NCBI GenBank assembly: GCA_018830295.1
Contig: JAHJSM010000002.1
Coordinates: 115,131-179,130 of the forward strand
Length of the DNA: 64,000 bases
Direction of reading: 5' to 3'
Source of the DNA: Patescibacteria group bacterium
Lineage (GTDB): Bacteria; Patescibacteriota; Minisyncoccia; Portnoybacterales; UBA2143
The notes beneath the pieces were generated by a model. The model was not told the origin of the DNA. It worked only from the letters and a program-made list of their open reading frames with translations, and made no database searches. Of this stretch, positions 47,308 through 58,412 are shown one piece after another. The first letter of the stretch is position 1. Every line of letters begins with the position of its first letter. The position numbers and the translations under genes are program-made.

Positions 47308-47342
47308 GGGAACAGTCCCCCGTCCGCGGGGGCTGCCCCCGT
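47308..47342. repeat. GC-rich palindromic element (GGGAACAGTCCCCC-GTCCGC-GGGGGCTGCCCCC)
   Basis: family member. Confidence 0.75.
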
Positions 47343-47850: not shown

Positions 47851-47995
47851 GTCGCAGTGGTTTTTTACTGGCAAGCGGACAAACAAAAAAGGGCACCCGC
47901 TTACCGACAGCCCTTTCGGAACTGTCTACTGCCTTTCGGCAGCAACCACTGCGACATGATGATAAGACGGATGCCCGTCTTTATATCGCAGTGGA
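47851..47995 (-). ncRNA. structured 5' leader RNA (three-way junction with two GNRA hairpins, mutually exclusive closing helices) upstream of the CPBP gene
   Basis: 12-bp helix GTCGCAGTGGTT/AACCACTGCGAC; hairpins CUGCC-GAAA-GGCAG and GACAGUUCC-GAAA-GGGCUGUC (minus strand); third copy of TCGCAGTGG at 47987 allows alternative pairing. Confidence 0.45.
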
Positions 47996-48149
47996 TTTTT
48001 TACCATACCTTATAGACCAAACTATAAGGGTTAGGCAATCAAATTGTTATTTGTAGATTAGCATAAATCAGAAATTTTTGGAAGCATGCGAAAAGATTAA
48101 ATTAATTTGAAAAAGGTCATCAGGAACTTTTTTATCGTTAAAGCGGAAA

Positions 48150-48589: not shown

Positions 48590-48750
48590 TAAAAAAGGTC
48601 AGGCCTTTCGAGTAGAGACATTTCTTAAGGTCTCGCTCAGAAGGTCTGACCTTTTTTCACCCCCTGTATTTCTCCCCAAACCCCCTCTAAATCTTTTATT
48701 CCCCCTTATCCTCCCTAAACCTATTCTTAAGATATTCCTTCTCTAATGCG
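48590..48750 (-). repeat. about 170 bp repeat copy 2 (3' ORF fragment plus terminator), interrupted by GC-rich palindrome at 48752-48790
   Basis: near-identical to 38815-38995. Confidence 0.7.
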
Positions 48751-49402: not shown

Positions 49403-49948
49403 TTACTTCTGATTATACCAACAAGTCGGATCGCTGTTAAGATAATCGCCTGTGTGATGCAATGCTGTCCCTCTACAACCATAGCATATTTGGCTATGTT
49501 TGCATATTTTACATTGCCCTTTTATCATATCCCGAATATTTCGTACATTCTGGAAAATAGATGAACCCTTGATAATTTCAGCAATCTTTTCTCTCGAAAT
49601 TATTCGCACTTGAACTTTTTGTTCTCCTAAAATTACAGATTTTACTAAACGGTGAAGACCATCAAGAATCAACCATCTTCCTTTATTCTTCATAATATCA
49701 ATAGGATGAGATAAATCAGCTTTCATTGTTCTTTTGTATTCTATTTTATATTTTTCAGGATGATTAATTACATCTTTTGGCTTTAATATATACCAAATAT
49801 TATTCTCATTCCAAAATGGAATATCAAAATGCCATTCCAACTCTTTAATATCCATTCGAGCAATAGGCACATCAAGCGCCCAAACCCTTCTTTCATCCCA
49901 ATCAAAATCAAAACCAACTTCTTCTATAATTTTTGGTATTTTTTCCAT
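49403..49948 (-). CDS. ParB/Srx-like nuclease domain protein with C-terminal Cys-rich tail
   Basis: WLILDGLHRL (DGxHR) motif; C-terminal CKICKH...CYGC. Confidence 0.45.
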   Translation of the reverse strand: MEKIPKIIEEVGFDFDWDERRVWALDVPIARMDIKELEWHFDIPFWNENNIWYILKPKDVINHPEKYKIEYKRTMKADLSHPIDIMKNKGRWLILDGLHRLVKSVILGEQKVQVRIISREKIAEIIKGSSIFQNVRNIRDMIKGQCKICKHSQICYGCRGTALHHTGDYLNSDPTCWYNQK

Positions 49949-50182
49949 ATCTCCAATCCCCCTCCAAATCTTTTATTTATTTTCTTAAAAGATTCCTGAC
50001 TATTTATATTATTATTTACAAGATTAAAAGATAATATAGCATATTATATTATTATTTATAACTCCCCCTCAAACGCCTTTTTCGGAACCGATTTTTTCAA
50101 TTTTTTTTTATTCCCCCTTATCCTCCTTAAACCTATTCTTAAGATATTCCTTCTCTAATTTCAAAGATTTTATTTCTATTTT

Positions 50183-50740
50183 TTATATATTTTTGGCTTT
50201 ATTCAATATATTACCGATCATCCAATACTTAAAACAACCAATATTCAAATAATCATATTTTTCCGAATTAAATAAATCAGAATAACCATTCTTTTTTATA
50301 TATTTACCAAAATCATCAAATGTTTTTTTATCATCATTAGATAAATTATCTCTTATAATATAATAATGTGGCACTTGCGGCATTGTTTTTGCAAATGTCC
50401 AAGCGCATCGATCTATAAAGTTTTCAATATATCTGATATATTCTTTAACTGATTTTGCCACCGTCTTTTCGTTTATGTTCCTTTCTTTACAATATGACAT
50501 TTTAAACCAATCTAATAATTTTTTATTACCGCGACTTGAATTACAACTTCCACAACAAATAACTACAGTAGAAGAATTATTCCAAGGAGGTAAATAGTTT
50601 AAATGTTCTATTGTTGCCCAATCCTTTCGACAACTATCATTACTGGGTTTAACCATTCTTTTATGACAATAAACACAAGTTTTGTCTCTTGATTTAATTT
50701 TATCTAATTCTGCATCTGGTATTCCGTATTTATTTTTCAT
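50183..50740 (-). CDS. HNH endonuclease
   Basis: CVYCHKRM...EHLNYLPPWNN...CCGSCNSSRGNK H-N-H zinc-finger motif. Confidence 0.6.
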   Translation of the reverse strand: MKNKYGIPDAELDKIKSRDKTCVYCHKRMVKPSNDSCRKDWATIEHLNYLPPWNNSSTVVICCGSCNSSRGNKKLLDWFKMSYCKERNINEKTVAKSVKEYIRYIENFIDRCAWTFAKTMPQVPHYYIIRDNLSNDDKKTFDDFGKYIKKNGYSDLFNSEKYDYLNIGCFKYWMIGNILNKAKNI

Positions 50741-50771
50741 AAATTATTTAAAATTCCTTTCAAATCTTTTT

Positions 50772-50816
50772 TTATCCCCAAGGGGACAGTCCCTGCGGCG
50801 GGGACTGTCCCCGTCA
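50772..50816. repeat. GC-rich palindromic element with embedded ATG (same MTGTVPAAGTVP reading)
   Basis: family member. Confidence 0.75.
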
Positions 50817-50863
50817 TAGTTCTGGTCGGCTTTCGGATAGCCGAATGGGTTTTTATTTATTCC

Positions 50864-51826
50864 CTAAAAAGATTCTTGATACCTTTCCTTTCGTCCTTGC
50901 CGATTAAGAACATTGACTATTTCTAGTATTTTACCAAACTGCTCTTCTTCATCCGAGTAGCAATAATTTAAAGAATATTCTGGTCTAATAAAATTATATT
51001 CAAGAACTTCTTTGTCGTTTAATCTTTTTCTCCTTAGATTTTTACCAGAAATAGGATAAACTGCTTCAATTAATACTTCGGGTGTTATTGGAAAATAATG
51101 TTTTCTCTCTAAAAAACTTACTCCATAAAAACTCTTTTTTTCTGGAAACCACTCAATTACTGGAGTGTCAGAAGTTATGAACCTGTATTTTCCTGTAACG
51201 ATGTAAACTCGCCAATTTTTGGCATAAATTAAATTAGCAAATCCCTCAACATCTTCAAAAAAATGTAGATGTTGAGCATTATTAAAGGTTAAACTATATT
51301 TTCCATCAATTATCATTTTTCTCATCTTCTTAATCTCTTTATCGCTTAAATTAATATTTTGTTTTTTAGCTAATTCTTTTGCCTTTTTAATGTAAATATC
51401 CTTATGCCCAGCATTTAAACCGTATAATTTCTTGGTCATATCTTCACTCATTCTATTCATTTGCTGTCTAAAATAATCGGTACGAATCCACATAATACTC
51501 ATTAAATAAGAGATATCATAACGTATATTATTACTAATATACTTATTGTCTTTTACTTGTTTACAAAAATAAGCAATAGCATTTACTGCTTTGTCTTCAA
51601 TGTTTTGCAAATAATCCTCTACTGCCTGACTCACATCATCTTGCTCTCCTGTTTTAACTCCATAAAAAAATTTCTCATAACAAACGCCACTATATGCTCT
51701 TTTTCTGCCTATCTTTTTATTTCTAATATCTAAAACAGACAATTTGCCATTATTGTCTGCAAACTGTTTTAAATAAAAACGAGGAACATAGTGCTGTTTT
51801 TTTGTAATCTGTTGTCTGTCTGGCAT
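50864..51826 (-). CDS. DUF4238 family protein
   Basis: N-terminal HYVPRFYLKQF signature. Confidence 0.55.
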   Translation of the reverse strand: MPDRQQITKKQHYVPRFYLKQFADNNGKLSVLDIRNKKIGRKRAYSGVCYEKFFYGVKTGEQDDVSQAVEDYLQNIEDKAVNAIAYFCKQVKDNKYISNNIRYDISYLMSIMWIRTDYFRQQMNRMSEDMTKKLYGLNAGHKDIYIKKAKELAKKQNINLSDKEIKKMRKMIIDGKYSLTFNNAQHLHFFEDVEGFANLIYAKNWRVYIVTGKYRFITSDTPVIEWFPEKKSFYGVSFLERKHYFPITPEVLIEAVYPISGKNLRRKRLNDKEVLEYNFIRPEYSLNYCYSDEEEQFGKILEIVNVLNRQGRKERYQESF

Positions 51827-51968: not shown

Positions 51969-52433
51969 CTAAAATTCTTTGTCAAATTGATTTTCCTTAC
52001 AATTAGTATACTCTCTATAAAAATAAGAGTATAATCCTGGAAAATCTTTGTTATATTCAGGTTTTAGCTCTTCACAATCAGTATCCTTCCATTCGCCCTT
52101 TGACGCTTTGTAGGTAATTCTACAAACATCATCTTTCTCAATATAGTTTTGGTGTAATACATTATTATAAGCCTCTCTTTCTTTTTCATATATTTCATAA
52201 CAATCTTTTTTTCTTTTAGCTATATACTCTTTATGTTCTTGTTCTGCCTTCACCTCTGATTCTTCCCTTTCTAATTCTAGCTCCTTCCTTTTTTCCTCTA
52301 ATTCTAATCTTTGTTGTCTTTCAATGGATTGTTGTTTATTATGCTGAACCCACACAAAACTTCCGCCTATTATCATTGCGGAAACTATAATTACAGCGGG
52401 ATAAACAAATTTATTTATATTTTTTATCTTCAT
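51969..52433 (-). CDS. hypothetical secreted coiled-coil protein
   Basis: signal/TM then charged repeats. Confidence 0.35.
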   Translation of the reverse strand: MKIKNINKFVYPAVIIVSAMIIGGSFVWVQHNKQQSIERQQRLELEEKRKELELEREESEVKAEQEHKEYIAKRKKDCYEIYEKEREAYNNVLHQNYIEKDDVCRITYKASKGEWKDTDCEELKPEYNKDFPGLYSYFYREYTNCKENQFDKEF

Positions 52434-52445
52434 ATTTAATTTTAA

Positions 52446-53825
52446 TCAAACAGCCACAACTTTTTCGATAATCTCGTCTATTTTATTTCTTTCTGTTTCT
52501 ATTTTTTGATTCATTTTTTCTTGTTTATCGAGTTCGGTCTTTATTTCGTCAACGATTTTTTGTTGATTTTTTAGGGGAATGTTTGGAATTTTAATATTTC
52601 CTAATGTTGTTGAATTTATTACAGGTTGACCTTTGGTTTTAACTACTTTTCTAATTTGTTTATTCCCAAAAACAGATTTCAAAAAATACATAACAAAATC
52701 ATTATTAAATCGGCTTAATCTAATAATTAAAATATTATCACTAGCAAATTTTTGAAAATCGTTTTTAATAATTCCAATTGGAATATCGGCGCTATCTAAT
52801 TTTGACCCAACACGACTAAATAAAATATCTCTAATCTTAAGGATAGCATTCTTGGAATTCGAAAATTTATAAGACATAATGCCACCATCAGAATTCAAAT
52901 CTTCAACTGAAATATAATTTCCTTCTTCTGCCACCTCTTTGTATTTCTCGGCATTACCCGCTTTTATAAAATCACTTATTTTCTTTAATTTTATAGTTTT
53001 TATTTTTTCTAAAAAATCTATATTATATTTGTGGTATTTAACTTTAAAAATTAGTAGTGGATCATTATTAATTTCACTAAACCCCGCCTCAAAAAAATTT
53101 TCTTTTTCTAATTCTTCAAATTTTTCTAAATCAAATCCAAACTCTCTCGCAAAAACTTTGTTGATAATTTTCTGAGCCGGAATAATTTGGTTTTTCATCT
53201 CTTTAATTTTTCTTTCGATTGGTTCAATTTTGACAACAATTTGGTCTTGAATATGTTTAGAAATTAAAGGTATTTTAATTTTCTTTAAATCGCTGTCCTT
53301 ATATGCAGATATTCCGATTCCTCGATAAATATGTTTATCTAAAATATTTCTTAATCTTTTTGTTCTTAAAATATACAAGATAAATTTTATATTCCATCCT
53401 TTTTTAATTTTGTAAATATAAAAGCCATTCGAAAAAACATAATTAGATAAATCTTTATTTTTAAAATATAAAGTTGGCGATTTCGCCAATCTTAAACTTG
53501 AAATTAAAATATTATCGTTTGAAGCTTTATGTTTTAATCTATTTGGATGATCTTCTGCAGTTACAGACTGATGCCCTTTAATTTCACCATCTTTATCCAA
53601 ATATGTTTGCCCCGTAGGAATTCCCTTATATTCTTCGCCTTCCTCATAATTAAATAAATTATAATCGTCCACAAGAATGTCTTTTAATGAAACTAAATTT
53701 TTATTTTTTGATTCAAATAAATTCCAATTTAAAAAATTTAAAAAGATATGATATTTCTCATCATTTCTTAGGAAAGAATCTTTTCTTAATTCCTGAAAAT
53801 CAATTGTAAATTGTTTTAGCGACAT
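52446..53825 (-). CDS. restriction-modification specificity subunit (HsdS-like, two target-recognition domains)
   Basis: two TRD-plus-conserved-helix units (IKIPLISKHIQDQIVVKI... and IKIPNIPLKNQQKIVDEIKTEL...). Confidence 0.65.
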   Translation of the reverse strand: MSLKQFTIDFQELRKDSFLRNDEKYHIFLNFLNWNLFESKNKNLVSLKDILVDDYNLFNYEEGEEYKGIPTGQTYLDKDGEIKGHQSVTAEDHPNRLKHKASNDNILISSLRLAKSPTLYFKNKDLSNYVFSNGFYIYKIKKGWNIKFILYILRTKRLRNILDKHIYRGIGISAYKDSDLKKIKIPLISKHIQDQIVVKIEPIERKIKEMKNQIIPAQKIINKVFAREFGFDLEKFEELEKENFFEAGFSEINNDPLLIFKVKYHKYNIDFLEKIKTIKLKKISDFIKAGNAEKYKEVAEEGNYISVEDLNSDGGIMSYKFSNSKNAILKIRDILFSRVGSKLDSADIPIGIIKNDFQKFASDNILIIRLSRFNNDFVMYFLKSVFGNKQIRKVVKTKGQPVINSTTLGNIKIPNIPLKNQQKIVDEIKTELDKQEKMNQKIETERNKIDEIIEKVVAV

Positions 53826-53830
53826 AAAGA

Positions 53831-54790
53831 TTAACCAATTCTTGTTTGATTTGGATTAAAATTTTCATCTTCGTTTATCCAGTCAATCTTAATTTTATCA
53901 ACTTTCCTTTCCCAGTCTCTTGTAGCTTTTCCAGAAATACAAACATTTTTAGTATTTTCAGGCTTTAGATAATCTAATATCTCAGATATTTTTTCTTTAT
54001 CTACGATACAAAGTATTTTTCTTTTGCCAATATCATCCTGCCTCCTTCTTGCTTGAAAAGCAAAATGATATTTATGTGCAAGCCCATAAAAATCGACAAA
54101 TTGACCTATAATCTTTATCTCTTCCGCATTTTCTTCGTCAAAAGGTTCTCGGATTCTTTCGTCAATTGAAAAAGTATCATAATCATCAAAATATTTCTTT
54201 TCGCTAAATCGTATTTTGGCAACTTCATTTTCTACATTATTCTGTTTGTATCCAATTTTCATTTCTTCTTCTTTTCCTTTTTCTAACTGAACAATACCAG
54301 AAATATAAGGGGCTAACTTTTTATAATTTTCCCAGTATTTTTCTAGTATAGTTTTTTCCTCGCCTTTATGATTTTTTAAAATTACAAATATTTTACCTTT
54401 ATTAATTTTTCTTTTTCCTTCTATTATGTTTTTACCTTTAGAAAAAATCTTGAGAGCAAATTGTTCTCCAAGTGTTCCAAAAAACTTTTTACCAAATTCA
54501 CCAACTCCTATAGCTTTTAATCCCAACCCTATTAAGGCTATATTAACTGGCAGTGAGGTAGCCGCATTAACTAATAAAAAAATTAATTCTGAACAATTTT
54601 TATTTACACTTGATATCTTTAAAACAAACTGATCGTTCTTGTCTAATTTCAAAACTTCTTTTTGATATTTTTTAAAAACTTTATCTAAAGCCACCAAACT
54701 TCTTCCCGCTTTAGCAATATCAACACTTCCATCCTCTAAAAATGGACCGAAATACTTAATATAACCAATAAATTCTTCTTGACTAGACAT
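53831..54790 (-). CDS. hypothetical protein embedded in the R-M locus
   Basis: ORF only; sits between S and R-M genes. Confidence 0.35.
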   Translation of the reverse strand: MSSQEEFIGYIKYFGPFLEDGSVDIAKAGRSLVALDKVFKKYQKEVLKLDKNDQFVLKISSVNKNCSELIFLLVNAATSLPVNIALIGLGLKAIGVGEFGKKFFGTLGEQFALKIFSKGKNIIEGKRKINKGKIFVILKNHKGEEKTILEKYWENYKKLAPYISGIVQLEKGKEEEMKIGYKQNNVENEVAKIRFSEKKYFDDYDTFSIDERIREPFDEENAEEIKIIGQFVDFYGLAHKYHFAFQARRRQDDIGKRKILCIVDKEKISEILDYLKPENTKNVCISGKATRDWERKVDKIKIDWINEDENFNPNQTRIG

Positions 54791-54802
54791 AAATTATTAA
54801 AT

Positions 54803-57172
54803 TTACTCCCACTCAATATTCCTCATATAATCCAAAGCTGTTTTTTCTATATTATCATCAACCAAGATCTCCCCCTTATTATTTGTCCTGAAAAGTTCGT
54901 TTGGCATTGGTTTTTCGCCTCTTTTTGTTCTTTTGTATCCTACATTTTCTACTTCTGCCATAAAAATTTTGTAATTCAATTCTTTGGCAACCTCGCCGAA
55001 TACCCACCACGAATTTACAAATCCAAAAGTATCTTTTGTATCATTATTGTATTTACACAAATCCCCTAATTCGTTTTGATATTTTTCCACCAATTCTTTA
55101 ACGGAAAGTTTTTTATCGTCTTGTTCAAAATAATCTTTTAGCATTCTTGTTAAAATTGTTTTTTCTTCCGTCTCTTTCAGATTTTTAATAGAGGGCAATT
55201 TTTTTCTGTCTTTTCCTTCAAGATATACTGCCGTTAAATTTTCGCATCTGGTTTTTAGATTATTCCATTCGTTAGAGTATTGACTCCAAAGATTATTCCA
55301 TTCTTCAATTTCCGATTTTGTTTTCTTTTGCGCGAAAAGCAAACTGGTTTTTGTTGAAGTGAACGGCTCAAAAGCCAACTGGGGCAAAGAAACAACCGCT
55401 TTAACTTTAAAATATTTGTAAATAAACAAGCGGATATATTTATTCTCTGTCGTGTCAAAAACGCTTTCCGGCAAAACAGCGCCAAAGCGACCATTCGGTT
55501 TTAGCAATTGATACCATCTTTCTATGAAAAGATTTTCTGAATTCTTTTTTTCACCAAAAGCAAACCCCTCCTTAACATTCTTTTGAGTATCATCATCCAA
55601 ATTAACGCTAAAGGGCGGATTCGTAATAATCACATCAAATTGTTCGTTAATTTCTTTGTTAAAATAAGTTTTATCTGTCTTTGATTTTTCTAATTTATTA
55701 GAATAAAAAGAAAAAGGGAGAAGACCGTCTTTTACATAAATATTAGCTGAACCGTCGCCGTGTAAAATCATATTAACCTTGGCGGCTGTACCTAAATTAA
55801 AATTAATGTCAGTTCCATAAATAAACTCCTCCGCCCATTTATTTTCAAGATTGTCGGGATAAAACCAATTTTGTATTTTATTTTCTACATTTTGGGAAGT
55901 TTCAATTTTGCTTCTAAATCTTCTTTTAACATTTTCGGTAATAAACTTCATATATTCAATCAAAAAAGTTCCGCTGCCCGCGCTTGGGTCTATTAAATAA
56001 GGAATTTCCAAATCTTTATTAATTCTATCTATCGCAAGTTTATCAAGTTGTAGTCCCCAAAGCAGAAATCTTACGATGTTGATGTGAGTAAAAAATTGAC
56101 CTTTCGTCTGTTTGAATCCTTCTCTGATAATCCCTTCAAAAAAATCTCCCAAAATATCTTTTCCATCAAAACTATTTTTCCCATCTACGAAAGAATAGCC
56201 TTCTAATTGGGTTATTGTATATTTAAGTTTGGCAAGAGAAAACTTATTTTCGTCAATGACAAAAGATTTTTTTAATTTTGTTTTATCTGTGATATTTAGC
56301 CGTTGCTTTAATGCCCTTTTATATAGTTCGTTTATTCTTTCAAAAAGTTGTTCGTTGGATTCAAAACTTTCTCCGTCCTTAAAGGAAAAAATTTGAAAAT
56401 CATATTTCTCGTCTTTCTTCTTCTCGCTCTCATCTTGAATTTTTGCCAAGATAATATTTACCAGCGAAGAAAAAATATCATTATCATCCATTCCTCCGCC
56501 GCCCCATAAAACATTGTGTAGATTTTTCCTAAGACCATCTAGCTGCTGATGGGTAAAACTTGCTTCTAAATCTTTTTTACCACCTTTTATGTATGGTTCT
56601 TTTTGCGCTTTTCCGTATCTTTCGGGTAGTTCATTAGCAAAATCCCTCGCTTCTTTCCATAAACTAAAAGAAGAAAATTTTTCATAATCAATAATAATAC
56701 ATTTGTCCTTTATCTCGTTTTCTACTATTTCAACTGTATATAAAACAAGATATTTAACTTTCTTGCCCTGCCCTTGCTCCTGCGAAGCAAGATTGAAAAG
56801 TTGTTTTTCTATAGTCTCGTCTTTGTCTTTTTCGTAATCCTGCGGACTTTTAAGTTCTATGTATAAAAAAGCGTTTCCGTCGTTATCTCGCACAATTATA
56901 TCTATCCTCGGTTTATTGACTTTTGGTCTGCCGATATCATATTCTTTTTCAATCTCAATATTTTTAGGATTATAACCTAATTCGTTGACTAATTTTGCGA
57001 GGATATACGCCCTAACAATTTCTTCATCTCCAGCTATTTTGTTTATTTTCCTATGCTGTATAATTGGTGCGTCGTATTTTATTTTGGACTGATCCAAAAG
57101 AGGAAAACTCGCAATTTGAATTTTGTTGCTTTTTAGGTAGTCTATAATTGGCGTTTGAATTTCTTTATTCAT
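54803..57172 (-). CDS. fused restriction endonuclease / N6-adenine DNA methyltransferase (Type IIB BcgI-A-like or Type IIG)
   Basis: N-terminal HsdR_N-like PD-(D/E)XK (IDIIVRDNDGNAFLYIELKSP); methyltransferase motif I DPSAGSGTF and motif IV ITNPPF; 789 aa. Confidence 0.7.
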   Translation of the reverse strand: MNKEIQTPIIDYLKSNKIQIASFPLLDQSKIKYDAPIIQHRKINKIAGDEEIVRAYILAKLVNELGYNPKNIEIEKEYDIGRPKVNKPRIDIIVRDNDGNAFLYIELKSPQDYEKDKDETIEKQLFNLASQEQGQGKKVKYLVLYTVEIVENEIKDKCIIIDYEKFSSFSLWKEARDFANELPERYGKAQKEPYIKGGKKDLEASFTHQQLDGLRKNLHNVLWGGGGMDDNDIFSSLVNIILAKIQDESEKKKDEKYDFQIFSFKDGESFESNEQLFERINELYKRALKQRLNITDKTKLKKSFVIDENKFSLAKLKYTITQLEGYSFVDGKNSFDGKDILGDFFEGIIREGFKQTKGQFFTHINIVRFLLWGLQLDKLAIDRINKDLEIPYLIDPSAGSGTFLIEYMKFITENVKRRFRSKIETSQNVENKIQNWFYPDNLENKWAEEFIYGTDINFNLGTAAKVNMILHGDGSANIYVKDGLLPFSFYSNKLEKSKTDKTYFNKEINEQFDVIITNPPFSVNLDDDTQKNVKEGFAFGEKKNSENLFIERWYQLLKPNGRFGAVLPESVFDTTENKYIRLFIYKYFKVKAVVSLPQLAFEPFTSTKTSLLFAQKKTKSEIEEWNNLWSQYSNEWNNLKTRCENLTAVYLEGKDRKKLPSIKNLKETEEKTILTRMLKDYFEQDDKKLSVKELVEKYQNELGDLCKYNNDTKDTFGFVNSWWVFGEVAKELNYKIFMAEVENVGYKRTKRGEKPMPNELFRTNNKGEILVDDNIEKTALDYMRNIEWE

Positions 57173-57510
57173 AAAAGTTTTAGTTATATTTTTTTATTAT
57201 ATTTAAAGTTCCTCCCCCTCATATTACCCCAACCAAAAAAACAAATCAAACGAAAACCCGCTTGGGGGCGGGGTTATAACTCTTACCATTCGCAGACTCT
57301 TTTGTCGTTGTCTCCGTCTAAATGATGAATGTCATCGCCGGTTTTCTCTTAACGAGGTTCGACCTACGAGCGCGACCTTAAGAAATGTCGCTACTCTTAA
57401 TGTCAAACCTCTTTGCTTACCATCCTATCCCTCTCATTTTACAAACCTAACTGTCGGATATGTATCTGAACCTATACACCAAAAAACTGGCTGTTTCAAC
57501 GGAAAAATCT

Positions 57511-57541
57511 GGGGACAGTCCCCGCAGCAGGGACTGTCCCC
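57511..57541. repeat. GC-rich palindromic element GGGGACAGTCCCC-GCAGCA-GGGACTGTCCCC
   Basis: family member; about 65 bp including flanks duplicated at 59582-59646. Confidence 0.8.
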
Positions 57542-57709
57542 AGATTAAAATCAATAGCCACTTGACAAGGTTTCTATATTTGATATTCTATTATTAGGGC
57601 TGGCAATAATACCTTTTGAAGCGCTCGGGTGTTCTCTCCGCAGATGCGGAGATCATAAAGCTCGAGAGTCCGTTTCAAAAGACGCCGCTCTACAAAAGAT
57701 TCCGATAAT

Positions 57710-58412
57710 TTATCGGGATTTTTTGTTTGCCCAATAATCCTTAAAAAGTTCGTTAGACGCGATGATGCTGTTTCTAAGCATTGCGAAAAAATGCTCGCCG
57801 TTTTTTCTTTCATTGTGGTATCTAAAAAGAGCCCCGCAAATCCAATCTGCTATTTGTATATTAGGACTAGCGGAAGAATTTAACGCTTCAATTTGAATAA
57901 CCGCTTTTGCTGGCAATTTTGGCAACAAATCTAATTTTGTAATTTCATTAAATTTTGTTTGAGAAATTTTTTTCAGATGCCTTTCGTCTCGGAATACTCT
58001 GAATTCTAAGTCAGTAGTAGGCAAAAGAAGATGAAGGGTTTGAACAATAACTTCGGCATATAAATAGCCGCTATCCAAACTTTTCTTTTTTCGATATTCC
58101 AAGGGGATGTTGGACTTATTAAAAAAGGCGTAAAATACCCTGATGTCTTGTTCAGTAAAATATTCAAGCGTTTTTACGGAGGTTTTCATCTAATCCTGTG
58201 TCTGAAAACTTAACTTCTGTTTTATAGCGAAGTTTCTTTGGAAATTTTGTATGTTGCCATTTGCGAAAGGCCTTGGATGTTCTTTTGTGATTGTTTGTGA
58301 TAAATCCGCCCACGACAAAATTACGCTCTTTGTTCCCTGTAAAATTACCTGATTCATCAAGAAAGATAAACATATTCCCCCTAATTTTACCCCAACCAAC
58401 AAGACAAATCAA
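57710..58412 (-). pseudogene. DUF3800 family gene split by a frameshift (N-terminal piece 58164-58373, C-terminal piece 57710-58189)
   Basis: N-terminal FIFLDESGNF and C-terminal QIADWICGAL in separate overlapping frames; combined length about 229 aa. Confidence 0.5.

What the first reader, a model, noticed from the sequence alone, without database searches (positions are those of the whole stretch)
52446..57172. AT-rich BcgI-like Type IIB or Type IIG restriction-modification locus with an embedded unknown gene
A 789-aa protein fuses an HsdR_N-like PD-(D/E)XK endonuclease domain to a gamma-class N6-adenine methyltransferase (DPSAGSGTF; ITNPPF). It lies 1 kb from an HsdS-like two-TRD specificity subunit, with a 319-aa uncharacterised gene between them. 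The region is markedly more AT-rich than the rest of the window, suggesting horizontal acquisition. Its upstream region carries the TTGATT…TAATAT promoter module shared with three other island genes.
Basis: partly seen in the sequence, partly recalled or inferred. Interest (0 to 1): 0.55.

Follow-up and report, generated by a model that had tools for sequence, protein, structure and literature searches.

The report
BsaXI-type restriction system carrying a cargo gene
This is an ordinary, horizontally spread BsaXI-type (Type IIB) restriction-modification operon in a Patescibacteria genome; the uncharacterised gene wedged between its two subunits sits in a slot that holds swappable anti-phage genes in related genomes, so it is a candidate new defence gene, not a part of the enzyme.

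Summary
**Observation:** confirmed. Three co-directional, tightly spaced minus-strand genes lie at the stated coordinates. They sit in a 29% GC island; the rest of the window is 38.5% GC.

**The R-M enzyme:**
- The 789-aa protein is 56.5% identical to the solved Type IIB enzyme RM.BsaXI (PDB 8w0p, E 4e-275).
- All four nuclease catalytic residues and the methyltransferase motifs are intact.
- It lacks BsaXI's C-terminal 'paddle', which puts it in the already described short, knob-only clade.
- The 459-aa protein is a two-TRD S subunit.
- So this is Type IIB, not IIG, and a new member of a known kind.

**The 319-aa gene (X)** is not an enzyme subunit.
- None of 46 species-representative BsaXI-like loci carries it.
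- In 19 of those loci RM and S overlap directly. In 16 the same junction holds other cargo, such as OLD/GajA-like, SoFic, KAP NTPase, Bro-N and Mrr-like genes.
- An RM gene 96.5% identical in DNA carries a SMODS/AGS-C cassette in place of X.
- X belongs to a small family seen so far only in Patescibacteria. It is usually embedded in R-M operons of four kinds: Type I, IIB, III and ISP-like.
- Its model shows nucleic-acid-type OB folds and no recognisable enzyme domain.

X is most likely an embedded accessory defence gene. Its mechanism is unknown.

The parts
57204..57256 (-). Promoter/5' module (TTGATT -35, TAATAT -10, GAGGGGGA Shine-Dalgarno-like) preceded by a small GC hairpin at 57257-57272
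   Evidence: A 3-copy, 53-nt repeat family lies upstream of RM, DUF3800 and RhuM. The hexamer pattern occurs 3 times against 0.31 expected. Promoter function is inferred from the consensus only.
54803..57172 (-). RM subunit, 789 aa: PD-(D/E)XK endonuclease, helical connector, gamma-class N6-adenine methyltransferase and knob; no paddle
   Evidence: PDB 8w0p_A RM.BsaXI: E 4e-275, query 13-763 aligned to target 12-773; 56.5% identity. Pfam HSDR_N_2, N6_Mtase, Eco57I.
56594..57172 (-). Endonuclease domain (about aa 1-193) with E75, D91, E106, K108
   Evidence: These residues align with BsaXI E73, D90, E105 and K107, the four REase residues whose alanine mutants abolish cleavage (PMC11997821).
55313..56161 (-). 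Methyltransferase core (aa 338-620), motif I DPSAGSGTF (aa 395), motif IV NPPF (aa 518)
   Evidence: Pfam N6_Mtase, residues 338-620; motif positions.
54977..55312 (-). Knob insertion (about aa 621-732), aligned to BsaXI 626-742. Only about 26 residues follow the aligned region, so no paddle can be present
   Evidence: Continuous alignment through the knob. Domain limits and the known short knob-only clade are from PMC11997821. Boundaries are inferred from the alignment.
53831..54790 (-). Embedded cargo gene X, 319 aa: DUF7946/LAPAL-like N-terminal part plus OB-fold(s); candidate accessory defence gene
52446..53825 (-). S subunit, 459 aa. Layout: TRD1 (about aa 13-181), central conserved region (aa 182-246), TRD2 (about aa 247-411), C-terminal conserved region (aa 412-459)
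   Evidence: S.BsaXI 8w0p_C: E 1.3e-11 over residues 103-456. Methylase_S and Specificity_I models. DNA identity to L058/L059 survives only at the start, at 53282-53089 and at 52591-52446; the TRDs differ.
51969..52433 (-). ORF154, possible fourth operon gene: hydrophobic N-terminal stretch and charged, Glu/Lys-rich, coiled-coil-like region by inspection of the translation, then a Cys-containing tail. Membership is uncertain
   Evidence: It starts 12 nt after the S stop. Its 5' end is conserved at 98.7% downstream of S in L059, but L058 has a DUF4268 gene there instead. No informative family hit.

Best explanation
The locus is a BsaXI-family Type IIB restriction-modification operon of the short, paddle-less clade. 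It was acquired horizontally by a Patescibacteria genome.

Inferred from the BsaXI structure: two RM subunits bind one S subunit. The two TRDs of S read a bipartite asymmetric site. The methyltransferase domains methylate one adenine in each strand of host DNA. The N-terminal PD-(D/E)XK domains cut unmethylated incoming DNA on both sides of the site.

Shown by comparison: the 319-aa gene X is not a subunit. It occupies the RM-S junction, which acts as a cargo slot in this family. Unrelated defence or candidate-defence genes are exchanged there, with the breakpoints at the RM stop codon and the S start codon. X is transcribed with the operon.

Inferred, and weakest: X acts as an independent accessory or second-line anti-phage factor that binds nucleic acid through one or two OB folds. 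Its effector step is unknown.
For: RM and S:
- E 4e-275 and 56.5% identity to RM.BsaXI.
- Catalytic E75, D91, E106 and K108 and the methyltransferase motifs are intact.
- S resembles S.BsaXI and has a conserved-region/variable-TRD pattern.
- The short knob-only clade is already described.

Horizontal transfer:
- 29.4% against 38.5% GC.
- More than 2214 clusters at E<=1e-50; the 120 best-scoring clusters listed are 76-100% identical and come from several bacterial phyla and Nanoarchaeota.

Cargo slot:
- Among 46 species-representative loci, 19 have RM and S adjacent or overlapping by about 10 nt.
- 14 have inserts of 0.8 kb or more, and 2 have inserts of about 300 nt.
- The inserts encode Old/GajA-like, AriA-like, SoFic, KAP NTPase/PDC-S20, Bro-N/PDC-S13, Mrr_cat, trypsin-like and PDC-S32-like proteins.
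- L058/L059 are 96.5% identical in DNA from 57214 to 54792. Identity then breaks exactly before the X start codon and resumes at the S start codon. Those loci carry a 178-aa gene plus a SMODS/AGS_C gene instead of X.

X itself:
- 0 of 46 BsaXI-like loci carry it.
- It is embedded co-directionally in Type I operons (L001, L009, L068, L077), other IIB loci (L005, L065) and Type III mod-273aa-X-res operons (L069, L072).
- It follows a Type ISP-like enzyme in L064 and sits beside an OLD nuclease in L067.
- Structure matches are to nucleic-acid-binding OB folds only.
- A distant relative lies in the lysogeny module of a Listeria phage, next to a superinfection-immunity gene.
- Guilt-by-embedding has experimental precedent.
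Against: - No enzyme of the short, paddle-less clade is reported as biochemically characterised in the papers read. In BsaXI, paddle residues D816 and E823 are needed for cleavage, so this enzyme could cut differently, or act mainly as a methyltransferase.
- X has no recognisable effector domain and no hit in PADLOC.
- Three to five of about 14 distinct X contexts are not in R-M loci: next to GlyRS, after a reverse transcriptase, or near housekeeping genes.
- Embedding is only correlative evidence of defence.
- NCBIfam labels the related LAPAL family 'putative phage structural protein'.
Confidence: 0.7

Rival explanations
1. X is a third, obligatory component of this enzyme, for example a trans-acting replacement for the missing paddle or a regulator needed for cleavage.
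For: X sits in tight operon coupling between RM and S. The RM protein lacks the paddle that BsaXI needs for cleavage.
Against: - 19 short-clade loci have RM and S directly overlapping with no extra gene, and 0 of 46 loci carry X.
- A 99%-identical RM protein is paired with different cargo.
- X also occurs in Type I and Type III operons and outside R-M loci.
- X has no sequence similarity to RM.BsaXI.
Confidence: 0.05
2. X is a hitch-hiking gene of phage or mobile-element origin with no host-defence role, for example an anti-defence or DNA-binding phage protein. It is simply tolerated in recombination-prone R-M junctions.
For: - The three significant full-length Foldseek matches (E <= 0.001) are to uncharacterised phage proteins.
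- The N-terminal part is related to NCBIfam LAPAL 'putative phage structural protein'.
- A relative is encoded in a Listeria phage.
- Some copies lie outside defence loci.
Against: - No recombinase, transposase or homing-nuclease domain was found.
- X is always co-directional and tightly spaced within its host operons.
- Other occupants of the same slot are mostly known or candidate defence genes.
- The phage relative lies in the lysogeny module, not among structural genes.
Confidence: 0.2
3. The RM protein is effectively a solitary S-dependent methyltransferase whose nuclease no longer cuts, because the paddle is missing.
For: Paddle mutants D816A and E823A inactivate BsaXI cleavage. The window protein ends about 26 residues after the knob.
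Against: - All four REase catalytic residues are conserved.
- Among the 120 best-scoring clusters listed, most are full-length (about 785-820 aa) and 76-81% identical to the window protein, and they span several phyla. This argues for selection on the whole protein, including the nuclease.
- The single-chain RMS Type IIB enzymes modelled in that paper are predicted to have a knob but no paddle.
Confidence: 0.12
4. The locus is a reduced MADS (methylation-associated defence system).
For: Best NCBIfam hits are MAD2 (E 4.2e-53) and MAD5 (E 4.1e-11). PADLOC mad2 and mad5 also hit.
Against: Scores are far below the family cut-offs: 180.6 against 720 bits, and 42.4 against 400 bits. No other mad gene hit appears among the 9 neighbouring proteins scanned. 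The match to BsaXI is far stronger.
Confidence: 0.02

Closest known systems
BsaXI (Type IIB R-M enzyme of Geobacillus stearothermophilus; PDB 8w0p, 8w2p, 8w2q; PMC11997821)
   Same: RM fusion with the same domain order: PD-(D/E)XK, helical connector, N6-adenine methyltransferase, knob. It is 56.5% identical with identical catalytic residues. It has a separate two-TRD S subunit of similar length (459 against 476 aa).
   Different: The C-terminal paddle is absent (789 against 916 aa). The S TRDs are only weakly similar (E 1e-11), so a different recognition sequence is expected. A foreign gene separates RM from S.
Short (<800 aa) knob-only BsaXI homologues described in PMC11997821 (Fig. 9)
   Same: Same length class and the same predicted architecture. 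The window protein is a typical member: the 120 best-scoring clusters listed are 76-100% identical to it.
   Different: Nothing significant in the RM protein itself. The paper does not discuss gene neighbourhoods or cargo between RM and S.
Genes embedded in Hma, BREX, DISARM and Type I R-M loci ('guilt-by-embedding', Payne et al., bioRxiv 10.1101/2024.01.29.577857), with PrrC in Type I operons as the classic case
   Same: A co-directional gene is nested inside a multi-gene defence operon. The slot is shared with known and candidate defence genes (Old/GajA-like, SoFic, PDC-S05, S13, S20, S32).
   Different: The host system here is Type IIB, which that survey did not cover. The X family is absent from PADLOC-DB v2.0.0.
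NCBIfam NF053583 LAPAL-motif family and Pfam DUF7946
   Same: The N-terminal 200 or so residues of X and its relatives match both, including the G-x-hydrophobic-x5-(K/L)A(G/P)x(S)LxAL motif.
   Different: Matches are sub-threshold: 27.9 against 60 bits, and 22.5 against 27 bits. The conserved C-terminal OB domain of X is not part of those families. Neither family has a known function.

Membership tests
Type IIB R-M, BsaXI family | RM fusion polypeptide with an N-terminal PD-(D/E)XK endonuclease carrying the catalytic E...D...ExK residues | tested here: met
   E75, D91, E106 and K108 align with BsaXI E73, D90, E105 and K107. Pfam HSDR_N_2, E 5.7e-10.
Type IIB R-M, BsaXI family | Gamma-class N6-adenine methyltransferase domain with SAM motif I and catalytic NPPF | tested here: met
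   N6_Mtase, E 3.6e-28. DPSAGSGTF at aa 395 and NPPF at aa 518.
Type IIB R-M, BsaXI family | Knob insertion in the methyltransferase domain | tested here: met
   Uninterrupted alignment across BsaXI residues 626-742. Based on sequence only; no structure of this protein was predicted.
Type IIB R-M, BsaXI family | C-terminal paddle (two long antiparallel helices; D816 and E823 needed for cleavage) | tested here: not met
   The alignment ends at BsaXI residue 773, and the window protein has only about 26 more residues. This places it in the known short, paddle-less clade. It does not place it outside the family.
Type IIB R-M, BsaXI family | Separate S subunit with TRD1-CR1-TRD2-CR2 layout | tested here: met
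   S.BsaXI E 1.3e-11 over residues 103-456. Two-stretch Specificity_I hits. Conserved-region/variable-TRD pattern in the DNA comparison.
Type IIB R-M, BsaXI family | Cleavage on both sides of a bipartite site; adenine methylation on both strands; (RM)2S stoichiometry | not testable with these tools
   Needs a methylome, or purified enzyme.
Type IIG R-M | Nuclease, methyltransferase and specificity domain in a single chain | tested here: not met
   Specificity is encoded by a separate gene.
MADS (methylation-associated defence system) | MAD2 and MAD5 scoring above the NCBIfam cut-offs, plus the other mad genes | tested here: not met
   180.6 against 720 bits and 42.4 against 400 bits. No other mad hits among the neighbours.
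Known or candidate defence families in PADLOC-DB v2.0.0 (for gene X) | Match to any PADLOC model | tested here: not met
   0 families at E<=0.01.
NCBIfam NF053583 LAPAL family (for gene X) | Whole-protein score of at least 60 bits | tested here: not met
   27.9 bits, N-terminal 200 residues only. More distant relatives of X do pass (P0086: 162.9 bits), so the two are related superfamily members.
Embedded defence gene (guilt-by-embedding criterion of Payne et al.) | Found nested co-directionally inside known defence operons, with no mobilome or housekeeping annotation | tested here: met
   Embedded in Type I, IIB and III operons in at least 8 distinct contexts. No mobilome domain found. Anti-phage activity itself was not tested.

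The most novel reading that the evidence does not exclude
X founds a new family of R-M-embedded immune proteins, so far seen here's searches only in Patescibacteria. It would be a tandem-OB nucleic-acid sensor or binder that works alongside any restriction system (Type I, IIB, III or ISP). It might recognise phage DNA intermediates, restriction products or anti-restriction activity. In addition, the RM-S junction of BsaXI-type operons would be a dedicated, rapidly exchanging defence-cassette slot shared between ultra-small bacteria and DPANN archaea.
Probability: 0.3. Interest if true: 0.6.

Novelty: new member of a known kind. Interest (0 to 1): 0.4.

Why it matters
The restriction enzyme adds little. 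It is one more member of a very common, already described clade, although that clade's paddle-less cleavage mechanism remains untested.

Two things are worth following up.

- **A cassette slot.** About 46% of BsaXI-type loci examined (16 of 35 with both genes visible) carry exchangeable cargo exactly between the RM stop and the S start. This extends the 'embedded defence gene' principle to Type IIB systems and gives a simple way to harvest new defence candidates.
- **Gene X.** It is an uncharacterised family that recurs inside four different kinds of restriction operon in Patescibacteria, organisms whose antiviral repertoire is poorly known. It is short and single-gene, so it is cheap to test.

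Tried and rejected
- **X as a split-off C-terminus or paddle of RM.** There is no sequence similarity to 8w0p_A, and a profile search of the PDB found nothing. X is absent from all other BsaXI-like loci.
- **X as a membrane protein.** The hydrophobic segment at aa 69-100 reaches a Kyte-Doolittle value of 2.05 here, but the family median peak is 1.36, so it is not a conserved transmembrane helix.
- **MADS.** The hits are far below the family cut-offs.
- **X in phage genomes.** tblastn against 50,697 phage records found nothing. A LAPAL-family relative gave only one weak hit, to a Listeria phage.
- **The DUF6575 lead.** The top Foldseek viral hit is a DUF6575 protein (E 7e-8, TM only 0.29-0.33). 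DUF6575 occurs in one experimentally validated E. coli defence system (PMC9519451). No sequence-level DUF6575 match appeared among the 25 families shown for the 40 family members. I could not identify which PD system carries the domain. This remains a lead only.
- **AFDB Foldseek.** The library was unavailable.
- **Promoter site at 62370-62397.** It shares only the two hexamers, not the module.
- **The 250-nt spacer upstream of the promoter (57260-57500).** No tRNA and no Rfam family was found.
Full report
**1. What is in the sequence**

Three minus-strand ORFs occupy exactly the stated coordinates:
- 54803-57172, 789 aa, called RM here
- 53831-54790, 319 aa, called X here
- 52446-53825, 459 aa, called S here

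The spacers are 12 nt between RM and X and 5 nt between X and S. A fourth ORF (51969-52433, 154 aa) starts 12 nt after S.

The finding is 29.4% GC and the 50.0-57.2 kb island is 29.2% GC. The rest of the window is 38.5% GC.

The window comes from a Patescibacteria genome. Identical X and RM proteins are on record from a 744,622-bp contig of a 'Patescibacteria group bacterium'.

**2. The restriction-modification enzyme**

RM matches Pfam HSDR_N_2, N6_Mtase and Eco57I. Against solved structures it hits RM.BsaXI (8w0p_A) at E 4e-275 over residues 13-763, with 56.5% identity.

The BsaXI cryo-EM paper (PMC11997821) divides that enzyme into these parts:
- endonuclease
- helical connector, residues 193-348
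- methyltransferase, residues 363-625
- knob, residues 626-742
- C-terminal paddle

The same paper shows that E73, D90, E105 and K107 in the nuclease domain are needed for cleavage. So are D816 and E823 in the paddle. In the window protein the four nuclease residues are conserved as E75, D91, E106 and K108. Motif I (DPSAGSGTF, aa 395) and motif IV (NPPF, aa 518) are also present.

The alignment stops at BsaXI residue 773, and only about 26 residues follow in the window protein. The paddle is therefore absent. This is not new: the same paper describes a clade of homologues under 800 aa that are predicted to have the knob but no paddle.

S matches Methylase_S and many two-stretch Type I specificity models. 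It also matches S.BsaXI (8w0p_C, E 1.3e-11, residues 103-456).

The locus is therefore Type IIB of the BsaXI family, not Type IIG. The hits to MADS components MAD2 and MAD5 are far below their cut-offs, and no other mad genes are present.

**3. How common it is**

More than 2214 protein clusters match RM at E<=1e-50. The 120 best-scoring clusters listed are about 785-820 aa long. All but the three nearest relatives are 76-81% identical to it.

A scan of one genome per species found 46 loci. They come from Patescibacteria, Saccharibacteria, Bdellovibrionales, Rickettsiales, Bacteroidota, Nitrospirae, Spirochaetota, Nanoarchaeota and Methanoperedens. Together with the low GC, this supports horizontal acquisition.

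**4. The embedded gene is cargo, not a subunit**

I called ORFs in the 46 loci and searched them with RM, S and a profile of X. The results were:

| RM-S junction | Loci |
|---|---|
| RM and S adjacent, usually overlapping by about 10 nt | 19 |
| Insert of about 300 nt | 2 |
| Insert of 0.8-2.2 kb | 14 |
| Contains X | 0 |

The inserts are co-directional genes of these kinds:
- Old/GajA-like OLD nuclease
- AriA-like ATPase
- SoFic
- KAP NTPase (PDC-S20)
- Bro-N (PDC-S13)
- an Mrr_cat protein
- a trypsin-like protease
- a PDC-S32-like protein
- PDDEXK_3 and GIY-YIG proteins
- an unknown 104-aa family

The closest relatives make the point most clearly. L058 and L059 (RM 99% identical in protein) are 96.5% identical in DNA from 57214 to 54792. 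Identity then stops 2 nt before the X start codon. It resumes at three places:
- the S start codon (53825-53788)
- the central conserved region of S (53282-53089)
- the 3' end of S and the start of ORF154 (52591-52293; 98.7%, in L059 only)

Between RM and S those loci carry a 178-aa gene plus a SMODS/AGS_C gene. The same is true of L060 and L061, whose RM is 87% identical in protein and about 84% in DNA.

The same comparison shows that both TRDs of S have been swapped while the conserved regions are kept.

In L005 and L062 the order is RM-RhuM-X-S, with a relic of the RM 3' end (ATTGAGTGAGAGTAA) just upstream of X. The RM-S junction is therefore a recombination slot for cassettes. It is probably served by homologous recombination in the conserved RM 3' and S 5' ends, but that mechanism is inferred.

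**5. What X is**

*Family.* X has no Pfam, PADLOC or PHROG match. It belongs to a small family of 43 clusters at 90% identity, all about 320 aa long. Every member that carries an organism name is from Patescibacteria. An exhaustive profile search of 1.84 billion representatives found only 32 proteins at E<1e-30 and 100 at E<1e-3.

*N-terminal part.* The weaker hits share only the N-terminal 200 or so residues. That part corresponds to NCBIfam NF053583 ('LAPAL motif-containing putative phage structural protein') and, below threshold, to Pfam DUF7946.

*Conserved residues.* The invariant residues cluster in the C-terminal domain: F231, D233, Y241, F245, Q246, R248, K256, K258, K276 and K299. No catalytic domain is recognisable.

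*Hydrophobic segment.* The segment at aa 69-100 is not a conserved transmembrane helix.

*Phage relatives.* Foldseek against viral models gives three full-length but loose matches to uncharacterised phage proteins. One of them is annotated DUF6575. DUF6575 occurs in one experimentally validated E. coli defence system (PMC9519451), but I could not confirm any sequence link. A LAPAL-like relative in Listeria phage vB_LmoS_188 lies in the lysogeny module, between a 'superinfection immunity' gene and the integrase, not among structural genes.

**6. Where X lives**

| Context | Loci |
|---|---|
| BsaXI-type RM-X-S | window |
| RM-RhuM-X-S | L005, L062 |
| A different HSDR_N_2-methyltransferase (713 aa)-X-S | L065 |
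| Type I hsdM…hsdS-X-hsdR | L001, L009, L068/L075, L077/L078 |
| hsdS-X | L066 |
| Type III mod-273aa-X-res | L069, L072 |
| Directly after a Type ISP-like methyltransferase/specificity protein | L064 |
| Next to an OLD nuclease | L067 |
| Next to an N6_N4 methyltransferase | L010 |
| After a reverse transcriptase | L007 |
| Next to GlyRS or housekeeping genes | L003, L070 |

About 9-11 of 14 contexts are inside or touching R-M genes of four different types. X is always co-directional with its host operon and usually separated by only a few nucleotides.

This meets the 'guilt-by-embedding' criterion of Payne et al. They validated seven such systems, but surveyed only Hma, BREX, DISARM and Type I loci.

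**7. Regulation**

A module of about 53 nt precedes RM, DUF3800 and RhuM. It has a TTGATT -35 element, a TAATAT -10 element and a GAGGGGGA Shine-Dalgarno-like sequence. The fourth site shares only the hexamers.

The pattern scan lists no strong promoter or terminator match at either junction, so RM, X and S (and perhaps ORF154) are probably one transcript. This is inferred.

**8. Verdict**

The R-M system is an ordinary member of a known and very widespread clade. The one open biochemical question is how, or whether, paddle-less BsaXI homologues cleave.

The embedded gene is the more interesting part. It is an uncharacterised OB-fold family that travels inside restriction operons of several types. 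It sits in a junction that behaves as a defence-cassette slot. Its anti-phage role and its mechanism are inferred, not shown.

Noticed in passing
window 57355-57413 (-), 48597-48655 (+), 38827-38885 (+); also L058 1293-1375 (+) and 9100-9158 (-): A conserved motif of about 55 nt, AGGTywGrCmTT..GAGTAG[C/A]GACATTTCTTAAGGTC[G/T]CGCTC..AGGTCkrACCT. Both the inner hairpin (GCGAC/GTCGC against GAGAC/GTCTC) and the outer stem show compensatory changes, which suggests a structured RNA or a terminator-like element. Rfam does not call it. In L058 two inverted copies flank the R-M island. In the window the copies at 48.6 kb and 57.4 kb bracket the AT-rich island.
   Followed up: partly
window 57595-57692 (+) and 57710-58412 (-): An Rfam DUF3800-V RNA (66.9 bits, E 7.5e-13) lies next to a DUF3800 gene, on the opposite strand. 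The gene appears split into two overlapping ORFs (57710-58189 and 58164-58412), which may be a frameshift.
   Followed up: no
window 47906-48037 (-): Rfam LOOT RNA, 70.9 bits against a gathering score of 46.4.
   Followed up: no
window 57480-57551 and 59590-59661: A 72-nt repeat, 96% identical, containing a 19-bp-stem GC-rich terminator hairpin followed by a T run. Related hairpins lie at 50782-50812 and 47308-47338. Together with the promoter module, these form reusable terminator-promoter units between the island genes.
   Followed up: partly
window 51969-52433 (-): ORF154 has a hydrophobic N-terminal stretch, a highly charged coiled-coil-like region and a Cys-containing tail (by inspection of the translation). 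It starts 12 nt after S. Its 5' end is conserved downstream of S in L059 but is replaced by a DUF4268 gene in L058. Possibly another swappable cargo position.
   Followed up: partly
window 49403-51826 and 58463-60382: The surrounding genes look like a defence island: DUF4238 (50864-51826, weak PADLOC DUF4238-Pers hit), an HNH-like protein (50183-50740), RhuM/PDC-S05 (58463-59524) and RadC (59663-60382). The RadC-RM adjacency recurs in L005 and L061.
   Followed up: partly
L058-L061, between RM and S: The nearest RM relatives carry a two-gene cargo (a 178-aa unknown plus a SMODS/AGS_C nucleotidyltransferase of about 421-446 aa). L060 and L061 also have GmrSD_N-HNH directly after S. These loci are assigned to both Parcubacteria and Nanoarchaeota MAGs.
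   Followed up: partly
L069 5156-5977 and L072 5109-5930: A 273-aa protein with no Pfam hit precedes X inside the Type III mod-res operons. It may be a partner of X, or separate cargo.
   Followed up: no
L007 5247-6803: A 518-aa RVT_1 reverse transcriptase lies about 200 nt upstream of an X homologue, outside any R-M locus. I did not test whether it is a defence-associated RT or a group II intron RT.
   Followed up: no
L011, L029, L034, L041 (RM-S slot): An unannotated family of about 104 aa recurs as the first gene of the cargo in four otherwise different BsaXI-type loci. It has no Pfam or PADLOC hit.
   Followed up: no
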